IMG/VR virus record: IMGVR_UViG_640753023_000007
DNA length: 41,597 bases
Strand: one strand, 5' to 3'
From: a virus
Taxonomy: Duplodnaviria > Heunggongvirae > Uroviricota > Caudoviricetes
The notes beneath the pieces are model-generated. The model searched no databases. It was not told the DNA's origin and saw only the letters and a list, made by a program, of their open reading frames with translations. Shown in pieces: positions 1-41,597 of the stretch (the first letter of the stretch is position 1; each line of letters starts with the position of its first letter). A program made the position numbers and the translations under genes.

Positions 1-1143
1 CTATGCTGTTTTGATATCTACGATAATCCAGTCTTTACCACGATCATCATTGTATCGGTCGGTCATTTTTCTGGATTTATGGCCTAACAACTTTTGCGTA
101 TCCAGACCCTGTTCCCGATATAACCGTTCTGACAGAGATCGCTGCTCATGAAATGTGGGCGCAGTTCCTTGCTCCCATTTTATGCCACATTTTTCCCGGG
201 CCTTTTTAAAAGCCGTTGTCAGAGTATTCGCAGAAACCTGGTCTCCTCTGTTTGCTTGAGAGGTAGTGTGACGGTAATGGACCAGATATTTACTAACAAC
301 AGCATCCCTGCACTGAGATATAACTTCACGAAGGGTAATATTCAGAGCATCGCATTTCAGGTTAAGCGGAATAGCAAGTTTTGAACCGGTTTTTTCCTGA
401 GTAATGTGCAACATGTCGTCCCATATATCAGAGAATTTCAAATTGCAGATATCGCCTAAACGTTGTCCAGTAACAAGAGCAAGTAGCATGCCGCATTTTA
501 AATAGGGCTGCCGTCTGCTTACGCTGTCAAATATTGCCTGCCATTCGGGCAGTGACAATCTTTGGCGGTTTACTCGATTTCGTGGTTGTTTTGTTGCCTG
601 CGCTGGGTTAAATCCTGGCGGAACATGTCCTGCGTGTTGTGCTTCTTTGAAGACGTCGATCAACACCATTCTCACGACTTGCGCCATCCTGTTATGACCT
701 TCAGCCTTTACAGCATCAATTATTTCGGCAATATCAAGTGCGGTAATATCCTTGAGGTGTTGCATTCCACAATGCTCACGGAAAAGACGAATGGGTTTGC
801 CTTTTTGCCGATAGGAGTTGGGTCTTAGTTCATTATGTTGCAGCCTGTCCTCTTGGATAGAAATATATTTATCAAGCCATTCTGTCACCGTAATGTCTGA
901 GCGCCTGCCTTTCATTCTTTCCAGACGCTCATTGACGCTTAATATTTGTCTGGTACGTTGTTCAGCAATAATGGTATTTGCTTCAGTAGCAACTTGTTTT
1001 GCTTCATTCTCATCAGTTCCTAAGCTATGAAAACGACCGGATAGTGGATGTTTGTATTGCCAATATACCTTTCCGGTTCGCTTATCTAATTTGCAATATA
1101 AATTGGGTATAGAGATTTTGTGAGATCGGGGTCTAGCAGCCAT
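1..1143 (-). CDS. int: Tyrosine integrase (lambda Int family, divergent from lambda Int itself)
   Basis: 380-aa minus-strand ORF whose stop codon is at window positions 1-3; C-terminal region carries tyrosine-recombinase-like segments (TFHEQRSLSERLY, LLGHKSRKMTDRY) alignable to lambda Int; overlaps the upstream xis-like ORF as in lambda. Confidence 0.9.
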   Translation of the reverse strand: MAARPRSHKISIPNLYCKLDKRTGKVYWQYKHPLSGRFHSLGTDENEAKQVATEANTIIAEQRTRQILSVNERLERMKGRRSDITVTEWLDKYISIQEDRLQHNELRPNSYRQKGKPIRLFREHCGMQHLKDITALDIAEIIDAVKAEGHNRMAQVVRMVLIDVFKEAQHAGHVPPGFNPAQATKQPRNRVNRQRLSLPEWQAIFDSVSRRQPYLKCGMLLALVTGQRLGDICNLKFSDIWDDMLHITQEKTGSKLAIPLNLKCDALNITLREVISQCRDAVVSKYLVHYRHTTSQANRGDQVSANTLTTAFKKAREKCGIKWEQGTAPTFHEQRSLSERLYREQGLDTQKLLGHKSRKMTDRYNDDRGKDWIIVDIKTA

Positions 1144-35413: not shown

Positions 35414-38400
35414 ATGGGTAAAGGCAGCAGTAAGGGGCATACCCCGCGCGAAGCGAAGGACAACCTGAAATCATCCCAGATGCTGAGCGTGATAGACGCC
35501 ATCAGCGAAGGGCCGGTTGAAGGTCCGGTGGATGGATTAAAAAGCGTGCTGCTGAACAGTACGCCGGTGCTGGACAGTGAGGGGAATACCAATATATTCG
35601 GCGTCACGGTGGTGTTCCGGGCCGGTGAGCAGGAGCAGACTCCGCCGGAGGGATTTGAATCCTCCGGCTCCGAGACGGTGCTCGGTACAGAAGTGAAATA
35701 TGACACGCCGATCACCCGGACCATCACGTCGGCAAACATTGACCGTCTGCGTTTTACTTTCGGCGTGCAGGCACTGGTGGAAACCACCTCAAAGGGGGAC
35801 AGGAATCCATCGGAAGTCCGCCTGCTGGTTCAGATTCAACGTAACGGTGGCTGGGTGACGGAAAAAGACATCACCATTAAGGGCAAAACCACGTCGCAGT
35901 ATCTGGCCTCGGTGGTGGTGGATAACCTGCCGCCGCGCCCGTTTAATATCCGGATGCGCAGGATGACGCCGGACAGCACCACAGACCAGTTGCAGAACAA
36001 AACGCTCTGGTCGTCATACACCGAAATCATCGATGTGAAACAGTGCTACCCGAACACGGCACTGGTCGGCGTACAGGTGGACTCGGAGCAGTTCGGCAGC
36101 CAGCAGGTGAGCCGTAATTATCATCTTCGCGGGCGCATTCTGCAGGTGCCGTCGAACTATAACCCGCAGACGCGGCAATACAGCGGTATCTGGGACGGAA
36201 CGTTTAAGCCAGCATACAGCAACAACATGGCCTGGTGTCTGTGGGATATGCTGACCCATCCGCGCTACGGCATGGGGAAACGTCTTGGTGCGGCAGATGT
36301 GGATAAATGGGCGCTGTATGTCATCGGCCAGAATTGCGACCAGTCAGTGCCGGACGGCTTTGGCGGCACGGAGCCGCGCATCACCTGTAATGCGTACCTG
36401 ACCACACAGCGCAAGGCGTGGGATGTGCTCAGTGATTTTTGCTCGGCGATGCGCTGTATGCCGGTATGGAACGGGCAGACGCTGACATTCGTGCAGGACC
36501 GACCGTCGGATAAGGTGTGGACCTATAACCGCAGTAATGTGGTGATGCCGGATGATGGCGCGCCGTTCCGCTACAGCTTCAGCGCCCTGAAAGACCGCCA
36601 TAATGCCGTTGAGGTGAACTGGATTGACCCGGATAACGGCTGGGAGACGGCGACAGAGCTTGTGGAGGACACGCAGGCCATTGCCCGTTACGGTCGTAAC
36701 GTCACGAAGATGGATGCCTTTGGCTGTACCAGCCGGGGGCAGGCACACCGCGCCGGGCTGTGGCTGATTAAAACGGAGCTGCTGGAAACGCAGACCGTGG
36801 ACTTCAGCGTGGGTGCAGAAGGGCTTCGCCATGTACCGGGTGATGTCATTGAAATCTGTGATGATGACTATGCGGGGATCAGCATCGGCGGGCGCGTGCT
36901 GGCGGTGAACAACCAGACGCGGACACTGACGCTCGACCGTGAAATCACGCTGCCATCCTCCGGCACCACGCTGATAAGCCTGGCTGACGGACAGGGGAAT
37001 CCGGTCAGCGTGGAGGTCCAGTCCGTCACCGACGGCGTGAAGGTAAAAGTGAGCCGTGTTCCTGACGGCGTTGCAGAATACAGCGTGTGGGGGCTGAAGT
37101 TGCCAACGTTGCGCCAGCGCCTGTTCCGCTGTGTGAGTATCCGTGAGAACGATGACGGCACGTATGCCATCACTGCCGTGCAGCATGTACCGGAAAAAGA
37201 GGCCATCGTGGATAACGGGGCGCACTTTGACGGCGACCAGAGCGGCACGGTGAATGGTGTCACGCCGCCAGCGGTGCAGCACCTGACTGCCGAAGTCACC
37301 GCAGACAGCGGGGAATATCAGGTGCTGGCGCGCTGGGACACGCCGAAGGTGGTGAAGGGGGTGAGCTTTATGCTTCGCCTGACCGTGGCAGCGGATGACG
37401 GCAGTGAGCGGCTGGTCAGCACGGCCCGGACGACGGAAACCACATACCGCTTCAGGCAACTGGCGCTGGGGAACTACAGGCTGACAGTCCGGGCGGTAAA
37501 TGCGTGGGGGCAGCAGGGCGATCCGGCATCGGTATCGTTCCGGATTGCCGCACCGGCAGCGCCGTCGCAGATTGAGCTGACACCGGGGTATTTTCAGATA
37601 ACCGCCACGCCGCATCTTGCGGTTTATGATCCGACGGTACAGTTTGAGTTCTGGTTCTCGGAAAAGCGGATTGCGGATATCAGGCAGGTTGAAACCACAG
37701 CACGCTATCTTGGCACGGCGCTGTACTGGATAGCCGCCAGTATCAATATCAAACCGGGCCATGATTATTATTTTTACATCCGCAGTGTGAACACCGTTGG
37801 CAAATCGGCATTTGTGGAGGCTGTTGGCCAGCCGAGTGATGATGCATCCGGCTATCTGAATTTTTTCAAAGGAGAGATAGGGAAAACCCATCTGGCTCAG
37901 GAGTTGTGGACGCAGATTGATAACGGTCAGCTTGCGCCTGACCTGGCTGAAATCAGGACGTCCATTACGGGTGTCAGCAATGAAATCACGCAGACCGTCA
38001 ATAAGAAACTGGAAGACCAGAGTGCAGCGATCCAGCAGATACAGAAGGTTCAGGTTGATACAAATAATAACCTGAACAGCATGTGGGCTGTGAAGCTGCA
38101 GCAGATGCAGGACGGACGCCTTTATATCGCGGGTATTGGTGCCGGTGTTGAGAATACTCCCTGACGGTATGCAGAGTCAGGTGCTGCTGGCGGCGGACAG
38201 GATTGCGATGATTAATCCTGCGAATGGCAACACAAAGCCGATGTTTGTTGGGCAGGGCGATCAGATATTCATGAACGAAGTGTTCCTGAAATATCTGACG
38301 GCTCCCACCATTACCAGCGGTGGCAATCCCCCAACGTTTTCACTGACACCTGATGGTCGACTTTCTGCGAAAAATGCGGATATCAGCGGTAACGTGAACG

Positions 38401-38897
38401 CGAACTCCGGGACGCTCAACAACGTCACGATTAATCAGAACTGTCGGATTCTGGGAAAACTGTCAGCTAACCAGATTGAAGGTGATATTGTCAAAACGGT
38501 GGGAAAAGCCTTTCCGAGAAATGGCAGTTATGCCAGCGGTACAATAACGGTCACTGTGTACGATGACCAGGCTTTTGACCGTCAGATAGTAGTCCCCCCC
38601 GTTCTGTTTCGTGGGGGTAAGCATGAAAACTTCAACAGCAACAACCAACAGTCATACTGGTATTCAACCTGTAAGCTGCAGGTACTGAAGAACGGACAGG
38701 AAATCTTTCAGCAACCCGCGACGGATGTCAGCAGGGTATTTTCATCAGTCATTGATATGCCTGCCGGACACGGCCATGTCACCCTGACTTTCAATGTTTC
38801 TTCATATGGTGCTAATAACTGGACGCCAACGACCAGTATCAGCGACCTTCTTGTTGTTGTGATGAAGAAATCTACAGCCGGTATCAGTATCAGTTGA
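35414..38897 (+). pseudogene. J: Tail tip / host specificity protein J, split by an apparent +1 frameshift at 38159-38161
   Basis: Frame A ORF 35414-38164 ends ...[10 protein letters not shown] then TGA; the protein continues in another frame as [23 protein letters not shown]... to 38897; an extra C in the CCC run at 38159-38161 explains the shift. Confidence 0.8.
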
Positions 38898-38915
38898 ATT
38901 TTATAACCCAGATAC

Positions 38916-38944
38916 GGGCGCCAGAAATGGCGCCTTTTTTATTT
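38916..38944 (+). terminator. Intrinsic terminator after J
   Basis: Stem GGCGCC-(AGAAAT)-GGCGCC followed by TTTTTTATTT, about 20 nt after the J stop. Confidence 0.65.
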
Positions 38945-38955
38945 GTGGAGTGAAT

Positions 38956-41016
38956 ATGGCAGTACAGATTTCAGGCGTGCTGAAAGACGGTGCAGGAAAA
39001 CCGATACAGAACTGCACCATTCAGCTCAAAGCAAAACGTAACAGCACCACGGTTGTGGTGAACACGGTGGCCTCAGAAAATCCGGATGAAGCCGGACGTT
39101 ACAGCATGGATGTCGAGTATGGCCAGTACAGCGTTATCCTGCTGGTTGAAGGTTTTCCGCCTTCACATGCCGGGGCCATCACCGTGTATGAGGATTCTAA
39201 GCCGGGGACATTGAATGATTTTCTGGGCGCTGCAACAGAAGATGATGTTCGTCCGGAGGCACTGTATCGTTTTGAAAAGATGGTGGAAGAGGTGGCACGC
39301 AACGCTGAAGCCGCCTCTCAGAGCGCAGCGGCAGCAAAGAAATCAGAAACAGCAGCGGCATCGTCCAGGAATGCGGCGAAAACATCAGAGACGAATGCAG
39401 GTAACAGCGCGAAAGCGGCAGCTTCTTCAAAAACAGCCGCACAAAACGCAGCAACAGCGGCAGAACGTTCAGAGACAAATGCCCGTGCGTCAGAAGAAGC
39501 CTCCGCAGACAGTGAAGAGGCTTCCCGCCGTAATGCAGAGTCAGCCGCTGAAAATGCCGGAGTCGCCACCACAAAAGCGCGGGAGGCCGCAGCAGACGCA
39601 ACAAAGGCCGGGCAGAAAAAGGATGAGGCTCTGTCGGCAGCGACACGGGCTGAAAAGGCGGCAGACCGCGCAGAAGTCGCAGCGGAAGTGACTGCAGAGC
39701 CCTATGCGAATATAGTGCCGCCGCTGCCTGATGTGTGGATACCGTTTAACGATTCACTGGATATGATTGCGGGTTTTTCTCCGGGCTATAAAAAAATAGC
39801 TATTGGTGACGATGTGGTTCAGGTCGCCAGTGATAAACAGGTTAATTTCAGTCGCGCATCAACGGCAACATATATCAACAAATCTGGCGAACTGAAAACG
39901 GCGGAAATTAATGAGCCGCGATTTGAGTGTGATGGCCTGCTTATTGAGGGACAAAGAACGAACTACATGCTCAATTCGGAAAGTCCAGCCAGCTGGGGGA
40001 AGTCATCAAACATGGATGTGCCCGAAACCGGGACAGATAGTTTTGGTTTTACTTATGGAAAGTTTGTCTGCAACGATTCTCTGGTTGGGCAAACTTCGGC
40101 TATTAATATGGCATCAATTGCTGCAACAAAGTCAGTTGATGTCTCAGGCGATAACAAGTACGTGACAACCTCATGCCGTTTTAAAACAGAACGACAGGTA
40201 AGGTTACGTATACGGTTTGATAAGTATGATGGTAGTGCAACAACTTTTCTTGGCGATGCGTACATTGATACGCAAACGCTTGAAATTAATATGACAGGTG
40301 GGGCTGCCGGCAGAATTACGGCACGAGTCAGGAAGGATAAGACCACAGGCTGGATTTTTGCAGAGGCAACGATTCAGGCAATTGATGGTGAGTTAAAAAT
40401 AGGCTCTCAGATACAGTATTCTCCTGAGCGGGGTGGGGCAACAGTATCTGGTGACTATATTTATCTTGCCACCCCACAAGTAGAGAATGGGCCGTGTGTA
40501 TCATCATTTATTATTTCAGGAGGCAGCGCAACGACAAGAGCCAGTGATTTGGTTAGTATCCCCACCAGAAATAATCTTTATAAGTTACCATTTACTTTTT
40601 TACTTGAGATTCATAAAAACTGGGATATTGCACCAAACGCCGCACCCCGCGTGTGGGATATAGCAGCAGCCAATACCGGGCAATCAGCAATTGCAGCAAT
40701 CAACAGAGGTAGTGGTAAGTTATATATGAGTCTGTCAAACCCTTCAGGCTTGTATGTTAATAGCGCAGCGACAGATGTATTTGCAGAGAAAACCACATTT
40801 GGATGTATTGCAAAAGCTGATGGTCACTTTCATGTGGTGACAAATGGTAAAGCGGTTAATGAAGTTTATTGTGAATATAATGGTGTGACCGCTGATAAAA
40901 ATATCCGATTTGGAGGGCAGACGAATACTGGAGAACGACATCTGTTTGGCCATATTCGCAATTTCCGCATATGGCATAAAGAATTAAATGACAGGCAATT
41001 AAAAGAGGTCGTATGA
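38956..41016 (+). CDS. stf: Side tail fibre protein (Stf-like)
   Basis: Track ORF 38950-41016 starts with GTG; ATG at 38956 preceded by GGAG; N-terminal 120 aa match lambda Stf (AVQISGVLKDGAGKPIQNCTIQLKAKRNSTTVVVN), followed by an Ala/Ser/Thr-rich low-complexity segment and an AT-rich C-terminal domain. Confidence 0.85.
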   Translation: MAVQISGVLKDGAGKPIQNCTIQLKAKRNSTTVVVNTVASENPDEAGRYSMDVEYGQYSVILLVEGFPPSHAGAITVYEDSKPGTLNDFLGAATEDDVRPEALYRFEKMVEEVARNAEAASQSAAAAKKSETAAASSRNAAKTSETNAGNSAKAAASSKTAAQNAATAAERSETNARASEEASADSEEASRRNAESAAENAGVATTKAREAAADATKAGQKKDEALSAATRAEKAADRAEVAAEVTAEPYANIVPPLPDVWIPFNDSLDMIAGFSPGYKKIAIGDDVVQVASDKQVNFSRASTATYINKSGELKTAEINEPRFECDGLLIEGQRTNYMLNSESPASWGKSSNMDVPETGTDSFGFTYGKFVCNDSLVGQTSAINMASIAATKSVDVSGDNKYVTTSCRFKTERQVRLRIRFDKYDGSATTFLGDAYIDTQTLEINMTGGAAGRITARVRKDKTTGWIFAEATIQAIDGELKIGSQIQYSPERGGATVSGDYIYLATPQVENGPCVSSFIISGGSATTRASDLVSIPTRNNLYKLPFTFLLEIHKNWDIAPNAAPRVWDIAAANTGQSAIAAINRGSGKLYMSLSNPSGLYVNSAATDVFAEKTTFGCIAKADGHFHVVTNGKAVNEVYCEYNGVTADKNIRFGGQTNTGERHLFGHIRNFRIWHKELNDRQLKEVV

Positions 41017-41291
41017 AAGATTTAACTTTGAAGTTTCATGACAAACTGCAGTTTAAGGCCTTCCTGTCATCTCTTGACTGGGAGGAGGATGAAGACCTCC
41101 AGAATAAACTGTTAGTCGATGAAATTGGTTTCACCTACACAGAAACAGGGGTAACAGAAGAGGGAGAACCTGTCTGTGTCCGGAATGACGGTTATTTTGT
41201 CAACATTCGCATTCTTGATGACTTGTTTGATGTTTCTGTATTCTCTGATTATGTCGTGGAGCTGGAAACACCGCTTCGGGAATGGAGCTGA
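41013..41291 (+). CDS. Hypothetical acidic protein (92 aa) directly downstream of stf
   Basis: ORF with ATGA overlap on the stf stop; acidic (DWEEDEDLQNKLLVDE); occupies the slot where a tail fibre assembly gene is expected but does not resemble lambda Tfa. Confidence 0.4.
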   Translation: MKDLTLKFHDKLQFKAFLSSLDWEEDEDLQNKLLVDEIGFTYTETGVTEEGEPVCVRNDGYFVNIRILDDLFDVSVFSDYVVELETPLREWS

Positions 41292-41303
41292 AAGGAGGAA
41301 ATA

Positions 41304-41597
41304 ATGGATATAAGCCCCTTACTTCATGCGCTTTGTGCTGTGGCTGCGCAGATACTGGTTGGTCTTTTTACCGGAAACTGGGCTTACGGAGCGATAGCCG
41401 GTTGTACGTTCTTCATTGCGCGTGAACATACCCAGGCAGAATATCGCTGGATTGAAATGTTCGGGCATGGCAAGCGAATGAATATGCCGTGGTGGGGCGG
41501 TTTTGATCCGCGAGCTTGGGATGTGGCAAGCCTGATGGATTTTGCTGTGCCGGTGGTGGCGTGTCTGCTGGTCTGGCTGTTGGTTAATCGTGGGTGA
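41304..41597 (+). CDS. Hypothetical small membrane protein (97 aa)
   Basis: ORF preceded by AAGGAGG; two hydrophobic segments (LLHALCAVAAQILVGLFTGNWAYGAIAGCTFFIA and LMDFAVPVVACLLVWLLV); stop codon at the window end. Confidence 0.4.
   Translation: MDISPLLHALCAVAAQILVGLFTGNWAYGAIAGCTFFIAREHTQAEYRWIEMFGHGKRMNMPWWGGFDPRAWDVASLMDFAVPVVACLLVWLLVNRG

What the first reader, a model, noticed from the sequence alone, without database searches (positions are those of the whole stretch)
41013..41597. Two unknown small genes after stf where a tail fibre assembly gene is expected
Directly coupled to stf (ATGA overlap) is a 92-aa acidic protein unlike lambda Tfa, followed by a 97-aa protein with two hydrophobic segments and a strong Shine-Dalgarno sequence. 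The first may be a dedicated chaperone for the novel fibre tip. The membrane protein could be an exclusion or immunity-type function, as cargo is common at tail fibre loci, but this is speculative.
Basis: partly seen in the sequence, partly recalled or inferred. Interest (0 to 1): 0.45.

Follow-up and report, generated by a model that had tools for sequence, protein, structure and literature searches.

The report
Two uncharacterised genes behind tail fibre
The two small genes after the side tail fibre gene are real and identical to two unstudied genes of coliphage 21: one is a small acidic partner that always follows this type of fibre, the other is a very conserved small membrane protein that sits directly behind receptor-binding genes in many unrelated phages and also occurs alone in some bacteria, and the function of both is unknown.

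Summary
orfX (41013-41291, 92 aa, pI 4.1) overlaps the stf stop codon by ATGA. orfY (41304-41597, 97 aa) follows a strong AAGGAGG site. The DNA is 100% identical to phage 21 genes CPT_21_23 and CPT_21_24, annotated "hypothetical" and "putative membrane protein". They belong to PHROG families 1361 and 1443, both of unknown function. Neither protein resembles Tfa or any solved structure.

- **orfX:** it always lies directly after, and overlaps, a homologue of the Stf C-terminal lectin-like module. This holds in Escherichia, Pantoea, Comamonas and a virulent Nonagvirus that lacks orfY. An assembly or accessory role for that fibre is the best reading. It does not co-vary with the variable part of the fibre tip.
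- **orfY:** a three-helix membrane protein with a nearly invariant REHTQAEYRWI...MPWWGGFD core and dN/dS of 0.07-0.19. It occurs in about 35% of complete E. coli genomes. It sits right behind fibres or tailspikes in lambda-like, P2-like, P22-like and large lytic phages. It also occurs as a lone chromosomal gene in Aeromonas and sphingomonads.

I found no promoter-like site upstream of orfY. An envelope-directed, exclusion-type role is plausible but untested. These are catalogued sequences with an open function, of moderate interest.

The parts
38950..41016 (+). stf, side tail fibre (688 aa). It has an N-terminal prophage tail fibre domain, an Ala-rich coiled-coil region and a C-terminal 'StfC' module (residues ~265-688) with a head-spike-fibre domain and a LamG-like lectin domain.
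   Evidence: PF08400 E = 9.8e-69 and Laminin_G_3 at 562-683, E = 5e-5, below the Pfam cut-off. NF048003 GTA_spike_fiber at 331-531, E = 1.2e-14. phrog_1419 and phrog_5939. 100% identical to phage 21 CPT_21_22. No Peptidase_S74 intramolecular chaperone domain was found.
41013..41291 (+). orfX, a 92-aa acidic soluble alpha/beta protein (pI 4.1). Its start overlaps the stf stop codon (ATGA). It is the partner of the StfC module.
   Evidence: phrog_1361 E = 8e-42 and phrog_18574 E = 3e-6. AF2 pLDDT 90.3. It always follows a StfC homologue.
41292..41298 (+). Shine-Dalgarno sequence AAGGAGG of orfY, 5 nt upstream of the ATG.
   Evidence: Read directly from the sequence. It is annotated as a ribosome-binding site in phage 21.
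41304..41597 (+). orfY, a 97-aa integral membrane protein with three predicted helices and a nearly invariant core, R40-E41-x-x-Q44-A45-E46-Y47-R48-W49 ... R58 ... P62-W-W-G-G-F-D68 ... W72 ... D79 ... P83.
   Evidence: phrog_1443 E = 2.4e-58. AF2 pLDDT 92.9 with helices 4-23, 26-52 and 74-96. Family alignments. 438 clusters at 50% identity, all of them short proteins.

Best explanation
The window ends with a three-gene receptor-binding module, stf - orfX - orfY, read as the tail end of the late operon.

**orfX.** It is a small acidic cytoplasmic protein. It is made by translational coupling with the fibre and serves the lectin-tipped StfC module, most likely as a trans-acting folding or assembly factor or a fibre-bound accessory. 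This fibre type lacks the self-cleaving C-terminal chaperone domain that many other fibres carry.

**orfY.** It is a separate, mobile gene for a three-helix inner-membrane protein. Its conserved polar cluster (H8, R40/E41/Q44, D79) and its Trp-rich loop would lie at one face of the membrane. It is co-expressed with receptor-binding proteins of many kinds. It most likely acts on the cell envelope rather than on the virion: an exclusion-type function that limits entry or adsorption at infected or lysogenic cells by acting on a component shared by all Proteobacteria.

**Shown:** the gene structure, the synteny, the conservation, the membrane character and the absence of promoter-like sites.

**Inferred:** late co-expression, the membrane topology, the chaperone role and the exclusion role.
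For: **orfX**
- It has an ATGA overlap with stf.
- Every X-type gene found lies directly after, and overlaps, a homologue of Stf residues 265-688. This holds for seven Escherichia-type loci (L001, L002, L003, L008-L011), Comamonas L015, L028 and L035, and Pantoea L024. The link between the distant X-type proteins and orfX runs through phrog_18574, with E = 3e-6 and 3e-11, and hhalign E = 0.0018.
- The virulent Nonagvirus ESCO3 carries StfC -> X -> second fibre, and no orfY was found in the 8.5-kb stretch examined.
- Stf has no Peptidase_S74 domain. The second fibre found next to X in other prophages does have one.

**orfY**
- Three confident helices are predicted, and GRAVY is +0.53.
- The core is nearly invariant from Escherichia to sphingomonads.
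- dN/dS is 0.07-0.19.
- It lies directly behind receptor-binding genes in lambda-like phages, a P2/HP1-like prophage (L006), a P22-like phage (JEP4), phiHAP-1, the large phages ACP1 and Carin-5 and a Comamonas prophage, one short ORF after a J-like gene.
- Of 45 non-E. coli-type IMG/VR contigs, 39 have a 357-1165 aa gene directly upstream. Most of these match tail fibre or tailspike families: 27 match phrog_17635 and 23 match phrog_1171. Many carry polysaccharide-degrading domains.
- No sigma-70-like promoter on the coding strand precedes orfX or orfY in phage 21, and none was found on either strand around orfY in JEP4.
- Lone chromosomal copies keep the same core and show conserved synteny: pirin -> Y in five Aeromonas species, and a DNA ligase gene upstream of Y in about three alphaproteobacterial loci.
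Against: **orfX**
- It does not co-vary with the variable part of StfC. Phage 21 against L008 gives StfC 44% but X 91% identity. L009 against L003 gives StfC 42% but X 99%. Tip-specific chaperones such as Tfa usually travel with their tip.
- This argument is softened because the last ~35 residues of StfC are conserved and could be what X recognises.
- The X type tracks the downstream gene instead. The 93-aa type goes with a second fibre, the 92-aa type with orfY directly after.
- The Chelativorans locus L034 has StfC -> Y without X.

**orfY**
- Exclusion and immunity genes normally evolve fast, whereas this family is extremely conserved.
- The receptor-binding proteins upstream are structurally unrelated, so no receptor-specific mechanism fits.
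- Late expression gives little time to change the cell surface.
- There is no PADLOC hit.
- The topology is ambiguous. The K+R count in the 40-73 loop (5.0) argues for a cytoplasmic loop, while the basic C-terminal tails argue for a periplasmic one.
- Nothing here measures function.
Confidence: 0.35

Rival explanations
1. orfY is a housekeeping-type small membrane protein of Proteobacteria, for example an ion- or lipid-handling protein or a regulator of a larger membrane protein. Phages picked it up as cargo. It sits behind fibre and spike genes only because operon ends and recombination-prone receptor-binding loci collect foreign genes. It has no phage-specific role.
For: - Lone chromosomal copies with no phage genes in the stretches examined, in conserved positions. 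Examples are pirin -> Y <- RIO1 in Aeromonas (upstream pirin in L005, L012, L014, L018, L019), a DNA ligase gene upstream of Y in about three alphaproteobacterial loci, and Y -> MetE-like gene in Leclercia.
- Strong purifying selection, and one conserved face on each helix carrying H8, E41, D79 and P83, which looks like an enzyme or a channel.
- All 438 relatives are stand-alone proteins of about 100 aa.
- In phage 21, JEP4 and many IMG/VR prophages it is the last gene before the prophage edge or other cargo.
- Its GC content (53.1%) differs from that of orfX (42.7%) and stf (47.8%).
Against: - It overlaps or abuts the preceding fibre, spike or accessory gene by 4 nt in several unrelated phage types.
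- No promoter of its own was found.
- It lies inside the structural operon of phiHAP-1 (tfa -> Y -> sheath) and between spike and fibre genes of the large phages Carin-5 and ACP1.
- In 39 of 45 diverse viral contigs the upstream neighbour is a 357-1165 aa gene, and most of these match fibre or spike families.
Confidence: 0.25
2. orfY is needed for receptor-binding proteins themselves. It would be a membrane-anchored maturation or assembly factor for fibres and tailspikes. orfX and orfY might act together as an assembly pair for the StfC fibre.
For: - Tight gene linkage and overlap with receptor-binding genes in all three tail morphotypes, including large phages with no integrase in the stretches shown.
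- X -> Y adjacency with 4-nt overlap is conserved in Comamonas and Pantoea.
Against: - The upstream proteins have unrelated folds: beta-helix spikes, P2-type fibres, LamG-tipped fibres, J-like proteins.
- Twelve of the 39 upstream proteins carry their own Peptidase_S74 chaperone domain.
- Virion assembly is cytoplasmic.
- Chromosomal orphans exist without any fibre gene.
- ESCO3 has StfC and X, but no orfY was found in the stretch examined.
Confidence: 0.12
3. orfX is a structural adaptor rather than a chaperone. It would stay on the fibre and provide the docking site for the second, short fibre encoded after it in most relatives. Phage 21 would have lost that second fibre and kept the adaptor.
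For: - The X type follows the downstream gene. The 93-aa type occurs with the 346-aa (or shorter) second fibre in L002, L003, L009, L010, L011 and ESCO3. The 92-aa type occurs where orfY follows directly, in phage 21 and L008.
- X is decoupled from the variable part of StfC.
Against: - Comamonas and Pantoea loci have X -> Y with no second fibre.
- The 92-aa type is kept intact, with dN/dS about 0.35 against L008, without a second fibre.
- No virion proteome data are available.
Confidence: 0.15
4. orfY is a lysis-timing protein (holin- or antiholin-like). Small membrane protein genes follow tail fibre genes in T7 (gene 17.5) and T4 (gene t).
For: It is a small membrane protein in a late operon. 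The T7 and T4 precedent comes from my own knowledge and was not tested here.
Against: - Phage 21 is known to have its own S21 pinholin lysis cassette (own knowledge; not checked in this window).
- orfY lacks the charged C-terminal tail typical of holins.
- It is conserved far beyond what holins show.
- It has chromosomal orthologues in stable positions.
- The PHROG matches carry no lysis annotation.
Confidence: 0.04

Closest known systems
Lambda Tfa / P2 G / Mu U tail fibre assembly proteins
   Same: orfX occupies the same position, immediately after the side tail fibre gene and co-translated with it. Like them, it is a small acidic protein.
   Different: - No sequence match to any tail fibre assembly family in Pfam, NCBIfam or PHROGs.
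- About half the length of those proteins.
- The predicted alpha/beta fold matched no tail fibre assembly protein.
- It does not co-vary with the fibre tip.
- A remnant of a true tfa gene lies after orfY in related prophages.
Receptor-binding-gene-linked exclusion proteins: Cor (phi80, N15, T1) and Llp (T5)
   Same: Small envelope proteins encoded next to the receptor-binding genes.
   Different: - Cor and Llp are outer-membrane lipoproteins that block one receptor, FhuA (own knowledge).
- orfY has no conserved lipobox; C34 is replaced in many relatives.
- It is predicted to be a polytopic inner-membrane protein.
- It accompanies many unrelated receptor-binding proteins, so it cannot be specific for one receptor.
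Inner-membrane superinfection exclusion proteins: T4 Imm, HK97 gp15, P22 SieA
   Same: Small phage-encoded inner-membrane proteins that act on incoming phage DNA. HK97 gp15 sits among tail genes (PMC11364771 cites Cumby et al. 2012).
   Different: - No detectable sequence relationship. The only PHROG matches are families of unknown function.
- orfY is far more conserved.
- It has stable chromosomal orthologues.
- No functional test was done.
O-antigen conversion loci next to tailspike genes (P22 gtrABC, Sf6 oac)
   Same: In the P22-like phage JEP4, orfY lies between the tailspike gene and int. P22 and Sf6 carry their conversion genes in that slot (own knowledge). Many upstream proteins are polysaccharide-degrading spikes.
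   Different: - orfY is too small to be a glycosyl- or acyltransferase.
- It has no similarity to Gtr or Oac proteins.
- It shows no promoter of its own.
- It also occurs in large phages (ACP1, Carin-5) with no integrase in the stretches shown.
PHROG families 1361/18574 and 1443 (unknown function)
   Same: orfX and orfY are full-length members, with E = 8e-42 and 2e-58. They are identical to phage 21 CPT_21_23 and CPT_21_24.
   Different: Nothing differs. These families have no assigned function, so membership explains nothing.

Membership tests
Tail fibre assembly proteins (lambda Tfa type) | Sequence match to a tail fibre assembly family model | tested here: not met
   orfX has no Pfam hit better than E = 0.064 (LUD_dom, below cut-off). 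It has no NCBIfam hit. Its only PHROG hits are two families of unknown function.
Tail fibre assembly proteins (lambda Tfa type) | Co-variation with the fibre tip it serves | tested here: not met
   StfC is 42-44% identical where X is 91-99% identical, and StfC is 73% identical where X is 54% identical.
Tail fibre assembly proteins (lambda Tfa type) | Gene immediately downstream of, and coupled to, the fibre gene | tested here: met
   ATGA overlap in the window. The same overlap occurs in all 12 loci carrying an X-type gene.
PHROG 1361 (orfX) and PHROG 1443 (orfY) | Full-length profile match | tested here: met
   orfX residues 1-91 match profile positions 1-91 of 92, E = 8.1e-42. orfY residues 1-96 match positions 1-96 of 97, E = 2.4e-58.
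Cor/Llp-type exclusion lipoproteins | Signal peptide with a conserved lipobox cysteine | tested here: not met
   The IAGC34 of orfY resembles a lipobox. However, C34 is A or S in Leclercia, Chelativorans, sphingomonad and other relatives. The N-terminal helix carries conserved residues (H8, about 91%). AF2 places C34 in the middle of helix 2.
Holins | Location in the lysis cassette and a charged C-terminal tail | tested here: not met
   orfY lies after stf and ends ...LLVNRG. Its PHROG matches have no lysis annotation.
Known anti-phage defence systems (PADLOC-DB) | Profile match to a defence protein model | tested here: not met
   No hit for orfX or orfY at E <= 1.
Inner-membrane superinfection exclusion proteins (Imm, gp15, SieA type) | Blocks DNA entry of superinfecting phage when expressed alone | not testable with these tools
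   This needs plating, adsorption and DNA-entry assays.
Fibres with an intramolecular chaperone (Peptidase_S74) | C-terminal S74 domain in the fibre | tested here: not met
   The window's Stf has none. The 346-aa second fibre of related prophages has one at residues 227-278, E = 4.8e-14.

The most novel reading that the evidence does not exclude
orfY would define a new, widespread class of phage accessory gene. It would be a universally conserved three-helix inner-membrane protein co-expressed with receptor-binding proteins of every tail type. It would act on a component common to all Proteobacteria, for example the lipid-carrier or surface-polysaccharide pathway, or the inner-membrane step of DNA entry, to control adsorption or entry at producing or lysogenic cells. 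Bacteria would have repeatedly domesticated it as a single-gene protection. orfX would be the founding member of a new family of trans-acting chaperones for lectin-tipped fibres.
Probability: 0.3. Interest if true: 0.7.

Novelty: new variant of a known kind. Interest (0 to 1): 0.45.

Why it matters
- **Spread.** orfY-type genes are present in 1902 of 5426 complete E. coli genomes, often in several copies. They accompany the host-range genes of lambda-like, P2-like and P22-like phages and of two large phages (150-240 kb). No function is known, and six full-text searches of the paper library found no paper on them.
- **Engineering.** A conserved partner of receptor-binding genes matters for host-range engineering. 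Fibre and spike swaps are usually made without such neighbours.
- **Basic questions.** It bears on how infected or lysogenic cells deal with their own and foreign phages. It could also assign a function to a family of bacterial small membrane proteins.
- **orfX.** If orfX is required for lectin-tipped fibres, it should be carried along whenever that fibre module is transplanted.
- **If both are dispensable.** They would still be useful markers of recombination units in fibre loci.

Tried and rejected
- **Tfa homology of orfX:** rejected.
- **Lipoprotein reading of orfY (IAGC34 lipobox):** rejected. C34 is not conserved and the N-terminal helix is.
- **Holin reading:** rejected on position, sequence features and conservation.
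- **Known defence systems:** no PADLOC hit.
- **PDB sequence searches:** nothing.
- **Exhaustive profile search for orfY:** 438 relatives, all short, with no domain fusions to give a functional hint.
- **Tai tail-assembly-inhibition systems:** considered and dropped. Those genes lie upstream of the packaging module and target J.
- **Literature searches** by accession, family id, phage name and topic: nothing on these proteins.
- **First IMG/VR scan:** returned only near-identical E. coli prophages. A second scan led by a non-E. coli sequence was needed.
- **Co-variation of X with StfC:** looked for as support for a dedicated chaperone and not found.
Full report
**1. What is in the sequence**

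The last 2.7 kb of the window holds three co-oriented ORFs.

- **stf** runs 38950-41016 and encodes 688 aa.
- **orfX** runs 41013-41291 and encodes 92 aa. Its ATG overlaps the stf stop codon (ATGA). It is acidic: 22 D+E against 8 K+R, pI 4.10.
- **orfY** runs 41304-41597 and encodes 97 aa. It starts 12 nt after the orfX stop and 5 nt after an AAGGAGG site. It is hydrophobic, GRAVY +0.53.

The whole stretch 38900-41597 is 100% identical to Escherichia phage 21 (OL657228.1) and to phage ev017. In phage 21 the two genes are annotated CPT_21_23 'hypothetical protein' and CPT_21_24 'putative membrane protein'. The oppositely oriented sitDCBA genes follow them.

The window is a phage-21-like genome in prophage order. 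An integrase fragment lies at 1-265, and the tail region is 99.4% identical to phage 21. The window stops exactly at the orfY stop codon, as do dozens of IMG/VR contigs. That end is most likely a prophage-caller boundary, not biology.

**2. Are they genes, and are they known?**

Both are full-length members of PHROG families with no assigned function. orfX matches phrog_1361 (E = 8e-42) and more weakly phrog_18574 (E = 3e-6). orfY matches phrog_1443 (E = 2e-58).

No database links them to anything characterised:
- Pfam, NCBIfam and PADLOC give nothing significant.
- Profile searches against all PDB sequences give nothing.
- Source names are all 'hypothetical' or 'prophage protein'.
- Six full-text literature searches, by accession, family id, phage name and topic, found nothing on them. 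A Phi21 coevolution paper cites OL657228 but discusses only J.

AlphaFold2 models are confident. orfX has pLDDT 90.3 and is a small alpha/beta domain. orfY has pLDDT 92.9 with three helices at 4-23, 26-52 and 74-96.

**3. The fibre**

Stf has the prophage tail fibre N-terminal domain (PF08400) and an Ala-rich middle region. Its C-terminal module, here called StfC (residues ~265-688), carries a head-spike-fibre domain and a LamG-like lectin domain. It has no Peptidase_S74 intramolecular chaperone domain.

Across E. coli variants the last ~35 residues (...RHLFGHIRNFRIWHKEL...) are conserved. The ~100 residues before them are hypervariable. This is the pattern expected for cassette exchange of binding loops within a fixed lectin scaffold.

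**4. orfX goes with StfC**

A profile of orfX finds seven copies in Escherichia-type loci, each directly after a StfC-type fibre gene.

In Comamonas (L015, L028, L035) and Pantoea (L024) a phrog_18574-type protein occupies the same place. It is either free-standing (95 aa) or the N-terminal half of a 171-188 aa protein. It overlaps the end of a ~390-400 aa StfC homologue and the start of an orfY homologue. The link between the two X groups rests on three results:
- the shared PHROG family, with E = 3e-6 and 3e-11;
- an hhalign pairwise E of 0.0018;
- a matching pattern of conserved positions.

I rate this link as probable, not proven.

The virulent Nonagvirus ESCO3 carries a StfC-type fibre (E = 2.8e-196), then X, then a second fibre with an S74 domain. 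No orfY was found in the 8.5-kb stretch examined. X is thus tied to this fibre type even in a lytic phage, and it is separable from orfY.

Against a tip-specific chaperone, X does not co-vary with StfC:
- phage 21 against L008: StfC 44%, X 91% identical;
- L009 against L003: StfC 42%, X 99% identical;
- phage 21 against L009: StfC 73%, X 54% identical.

The two X types follow what lies downstream. The 93-aa type precedes a second fibre. The 92-aa type precedes orfY directly. Because the StfC scaffold and C-terminus are conserved, a scaffold-recognising chaperone remains possible. An adaptor for the second fibre is a live rival.

Constraint on X is weaker than on Y. Most pairs give dN/dS between about 0.1 and 0.6, and the ESCO3 comparisons with L003 and L009 exceed 1, on few substitutions.

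**5. orfY is a separate, very conserved and very mobile gene**

In E. coli the orfY half of the query occurs in 1902 of 5426 complete genomes, with a median of two places per genome that has any and up to seven. The X+Y pair occurs in about 1126 genomes.

Many prophages have the layout stf - X - 346-aa fibre (with S74 chaperone) - Y - tfa remnant. The phage 21 layout looks like the same module without the second fibre.

The family comprises 577 clusters at 90% identity in the word-indexed search. The exhaustive search finds 438 clusters at 50% identity, and every one of the best 150 listed is a stand-alone protein of 58-146 aa. Members occur in Gamma-, Beta- and Alphaproteobacteria and in Desulfovibrio.

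The following residues are kept in at least 88% of 33 diverse members: H8, G29, R40, E41, Q44, A45, E46, Y47, R48, W49, I50, G56, R58, M61, P62, W63, W64, G65, G66, F67, D68, W72, D79 and P83. dN/dS is 0.07-0.19.

From helix geometry I infer that H8, R40/E41/Q44 and D79 lie at similar depth near one membrane face, next to the Trp-rich loop. That resembles a binding or catalytic site more than a passive anchor.

Topology is not settled. Basic C-terminal tails and a basic 22-26 turn argue for N-out/C-in with the conserved loop in the periplasm. The loop's own five K+R argue the other way. C34 looks like a lipobox cysteine in E. coli but is not conserved, so the lipoprotein idea is rejected.

**6. 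Where orfY sits**

In phages it lies directly behind the receptor-binding gene or that gene's accessory, often with a 4-nt overlap:

| Phage or prophage | Layout |
|---|---|
| Lambda-like (phage 21 and relatives) | after stf - X, or after the second fibre |
| P2/HP1-like Aeromonas prophage | after the 875-aa fibre |
| Comamonas prophage | one short ORF after a 2520-aa J-like protein |
| Comamonas and Pigmentiphaga prophages | between a 370-383 aa protein and a DGR avd gene |
| Leclercia locus L033 | after a tailspike |
| P22-like phage JEP4 | tailspike - Y - int |
| Halomonas phage phiHAP-1 | tfa - Y - sheath |
| Aeromonas phage ACP1 (236 kb) | between two large fibre-like genes |
| Cobetia phage Carin-5 (155 kb) | tailspike - Y - fibre - tailspike |

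In a second IMG/VR scan, 39 of 45 non-E. coli-type contigs have a 357-1165 aa gene immediately upstream, with gaps of -8 to +72 nt. Of those 39 proteins:
- 27 match phrog_17635 (tail fibre) and 23 match phrog_1171 (tail spike);
- Pfam finds Peptidase_S74 in 12, pectate-lyase-like beta-helix in 8, Tail_spike_N in 8, P2-type fibre N-terminus in 6, P22 head-binding domain in 3, GDSL esterase in 2 and K1 lyase in 1.

Many of these are polysaccharide-directed.

No sigma-70-like promoter on the coding strand precedes orfX or orfY in phage 21, and none was found on either strand around orfY in JEP4. Expression as the last cistron of the late transcript is therefore the simplest reading. This is an inference from a crude consensus scan.

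orfY also exists as a lone chromosomal gene with conserved neighbours:
- pirin upstream of Y in five Aeromonas species, with RIO1 downstream in the annotated locus;
- a DNA ligase gene upstream of Y in about three alphaproteobacterial loci;
- Y -> MetE-like gene in Leclercia.

**7. Interpretation**

For orfX, strict coupling to one fibre scaffold and the lack of an S74 domain in that fibre favour a trans-acting assembly or accessory role. Its presence in a virulent phage points the same way. The lack of co-variation and the link to the downstream fibre keep the adaptor reading open.

For orfY, the diversity of upstream proteins and the self-chaperoning of many of them argue against a chaperone role. 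So do the membrane location and the chromosomal orphans. The linkage to receptor-binding genes, including those of two large phages, argues against mere cargo.

The reading that fits most facts is an envelope-directed function co-expressed with receptor-binding proteins. It would act on something shared by all Proteobacteria, for instance an inner-membrane step of entry or the display of surface polysaccharide. The extreme conservation is unusual for such genes, and nothing here tests function. I give the combined explanation 0.35. The housekeeping-cargo rival gets 0.25.

**8. Comparison and novelty**

In position, orfX resembles Tfa, and orfY resembles Cor/Llp, Imm/gp15 or tailspike-adjacent conversion genes. 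Neither meets the defining sequence features of those families; the membership table lists each test.

The sequences themselves are already deposited and catalogued. What appears not to be described is the family-wide picture:
- a StfC-X unit shared by temperate and virulent phages;
- a near-invariant small membrane protein that trails receptor-binding genes across tail types and is fixed in some bacterial chromosomes.

I rate this as a new variant of a known kind (accessory genes of receptor-binding loci). Interest is moderate.

**9. Limits**

- There are no functional data.
- Promoter scans use a consensus only.
- The homology between the two X groups is remote.
- The topology of orfY is unresolved.
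- Context counts rest on simple ORF calling plus profile scans.
- No complex prediction could be run.

Noticed in passing
window 35414-38897 (break at ~38159): The J (central tail fibre) gene has one extra C (CTCCC, against CTCC in phage 21). J is therefore cut to 916 aa, and the C-terminal receptor-binding domain is left in another frame as a 253-aa ORF (38136-38897). This is either a defective prophage or a homopolymer sequencing error.
   Followed up: yes
window 1-265 and 41597: The window is a phage-21-like genome in prophage order. It starts inside int and ends exactly at the orfY stop codon. Dozens of IMG/VR contigs end at the same base, so the end looks like a prophage-caller boundary. 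In phage 21 the sitDCBA iron/manganese transporter genes follow on the other strand.
   Followed up: yes
L002 4298-5002, L003 3919-4959, L009 4918-5958: Most related E. coli prophages carry a second short fibre between orfX and orfY. It is 346 aa and has a Peptidase_S74 intramolecular chaperone domain. A remnant of a tfa gene follows orfY. Phage 21 and this window lack the second fibre.
   Followed up: partly
L141 (Escherichia phage vB_EcoS_ESCO3, 2905-6347): A virulent Nonagvirus shares the orfX - second fibre segment with temperate lambdoid prophages at about 93% nucleotide identity. It also has a StfC-type fibre just upstream (protein E = 2.8e-196 to the window's StfC). This points to recent exchange of a receptor-binding module between temperate and virulent phages.
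   Followed up: partly
L036 and L039, 4785-6691: In Comamonas nitrativorans and Pigmentiphaga humi prophages, orfY lies between a 370-383 aa protein of unknown family and an Avd gene of a diversity-generating retroelement. It may therefore sit directly behind the variable target gene.
   Followed up: no
L005, L012, L014, L018 and L019 (Aeromonas); about three alphaproteobacterial loci among L047, L048, L051 and L055: Lone chromosomal orfY homologues occur in conserved positions (pirin upstream in Aeromonas, a DNA ligase gene upstream in the alphaproteobacterial loci). No phage genes lie in the stretches examined.
   Followed up: partly
window 40600-41016 (Stf residues ~550-688): The last ~35 residues of Stf are conserved across variants (column identity about 0.8). 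The ~100 residues before them are hypervariable (0.44-0.51). This fits exchange of binding loops within a fixed LamG scaffold.
   Followed up: partly
window 38950-41597: Base composition is mosaic: stf 47.8%, orfX 42.7%, orfY 53.1% and J 57.5% G+C. This is consistent with separate origins for the three genes.
   Followed up: no
L142 3501-3662 (Escherichia phage HC6 and relatives): An unannotated ORF resembling the C-terminal half of orfY (43% identity over residues 41-94) lies right after an 859-aa structural-region protein. It occurs in a group of ~48-kb and ~73-kb Escherichia and Salmonella phages.
   Followed up: no
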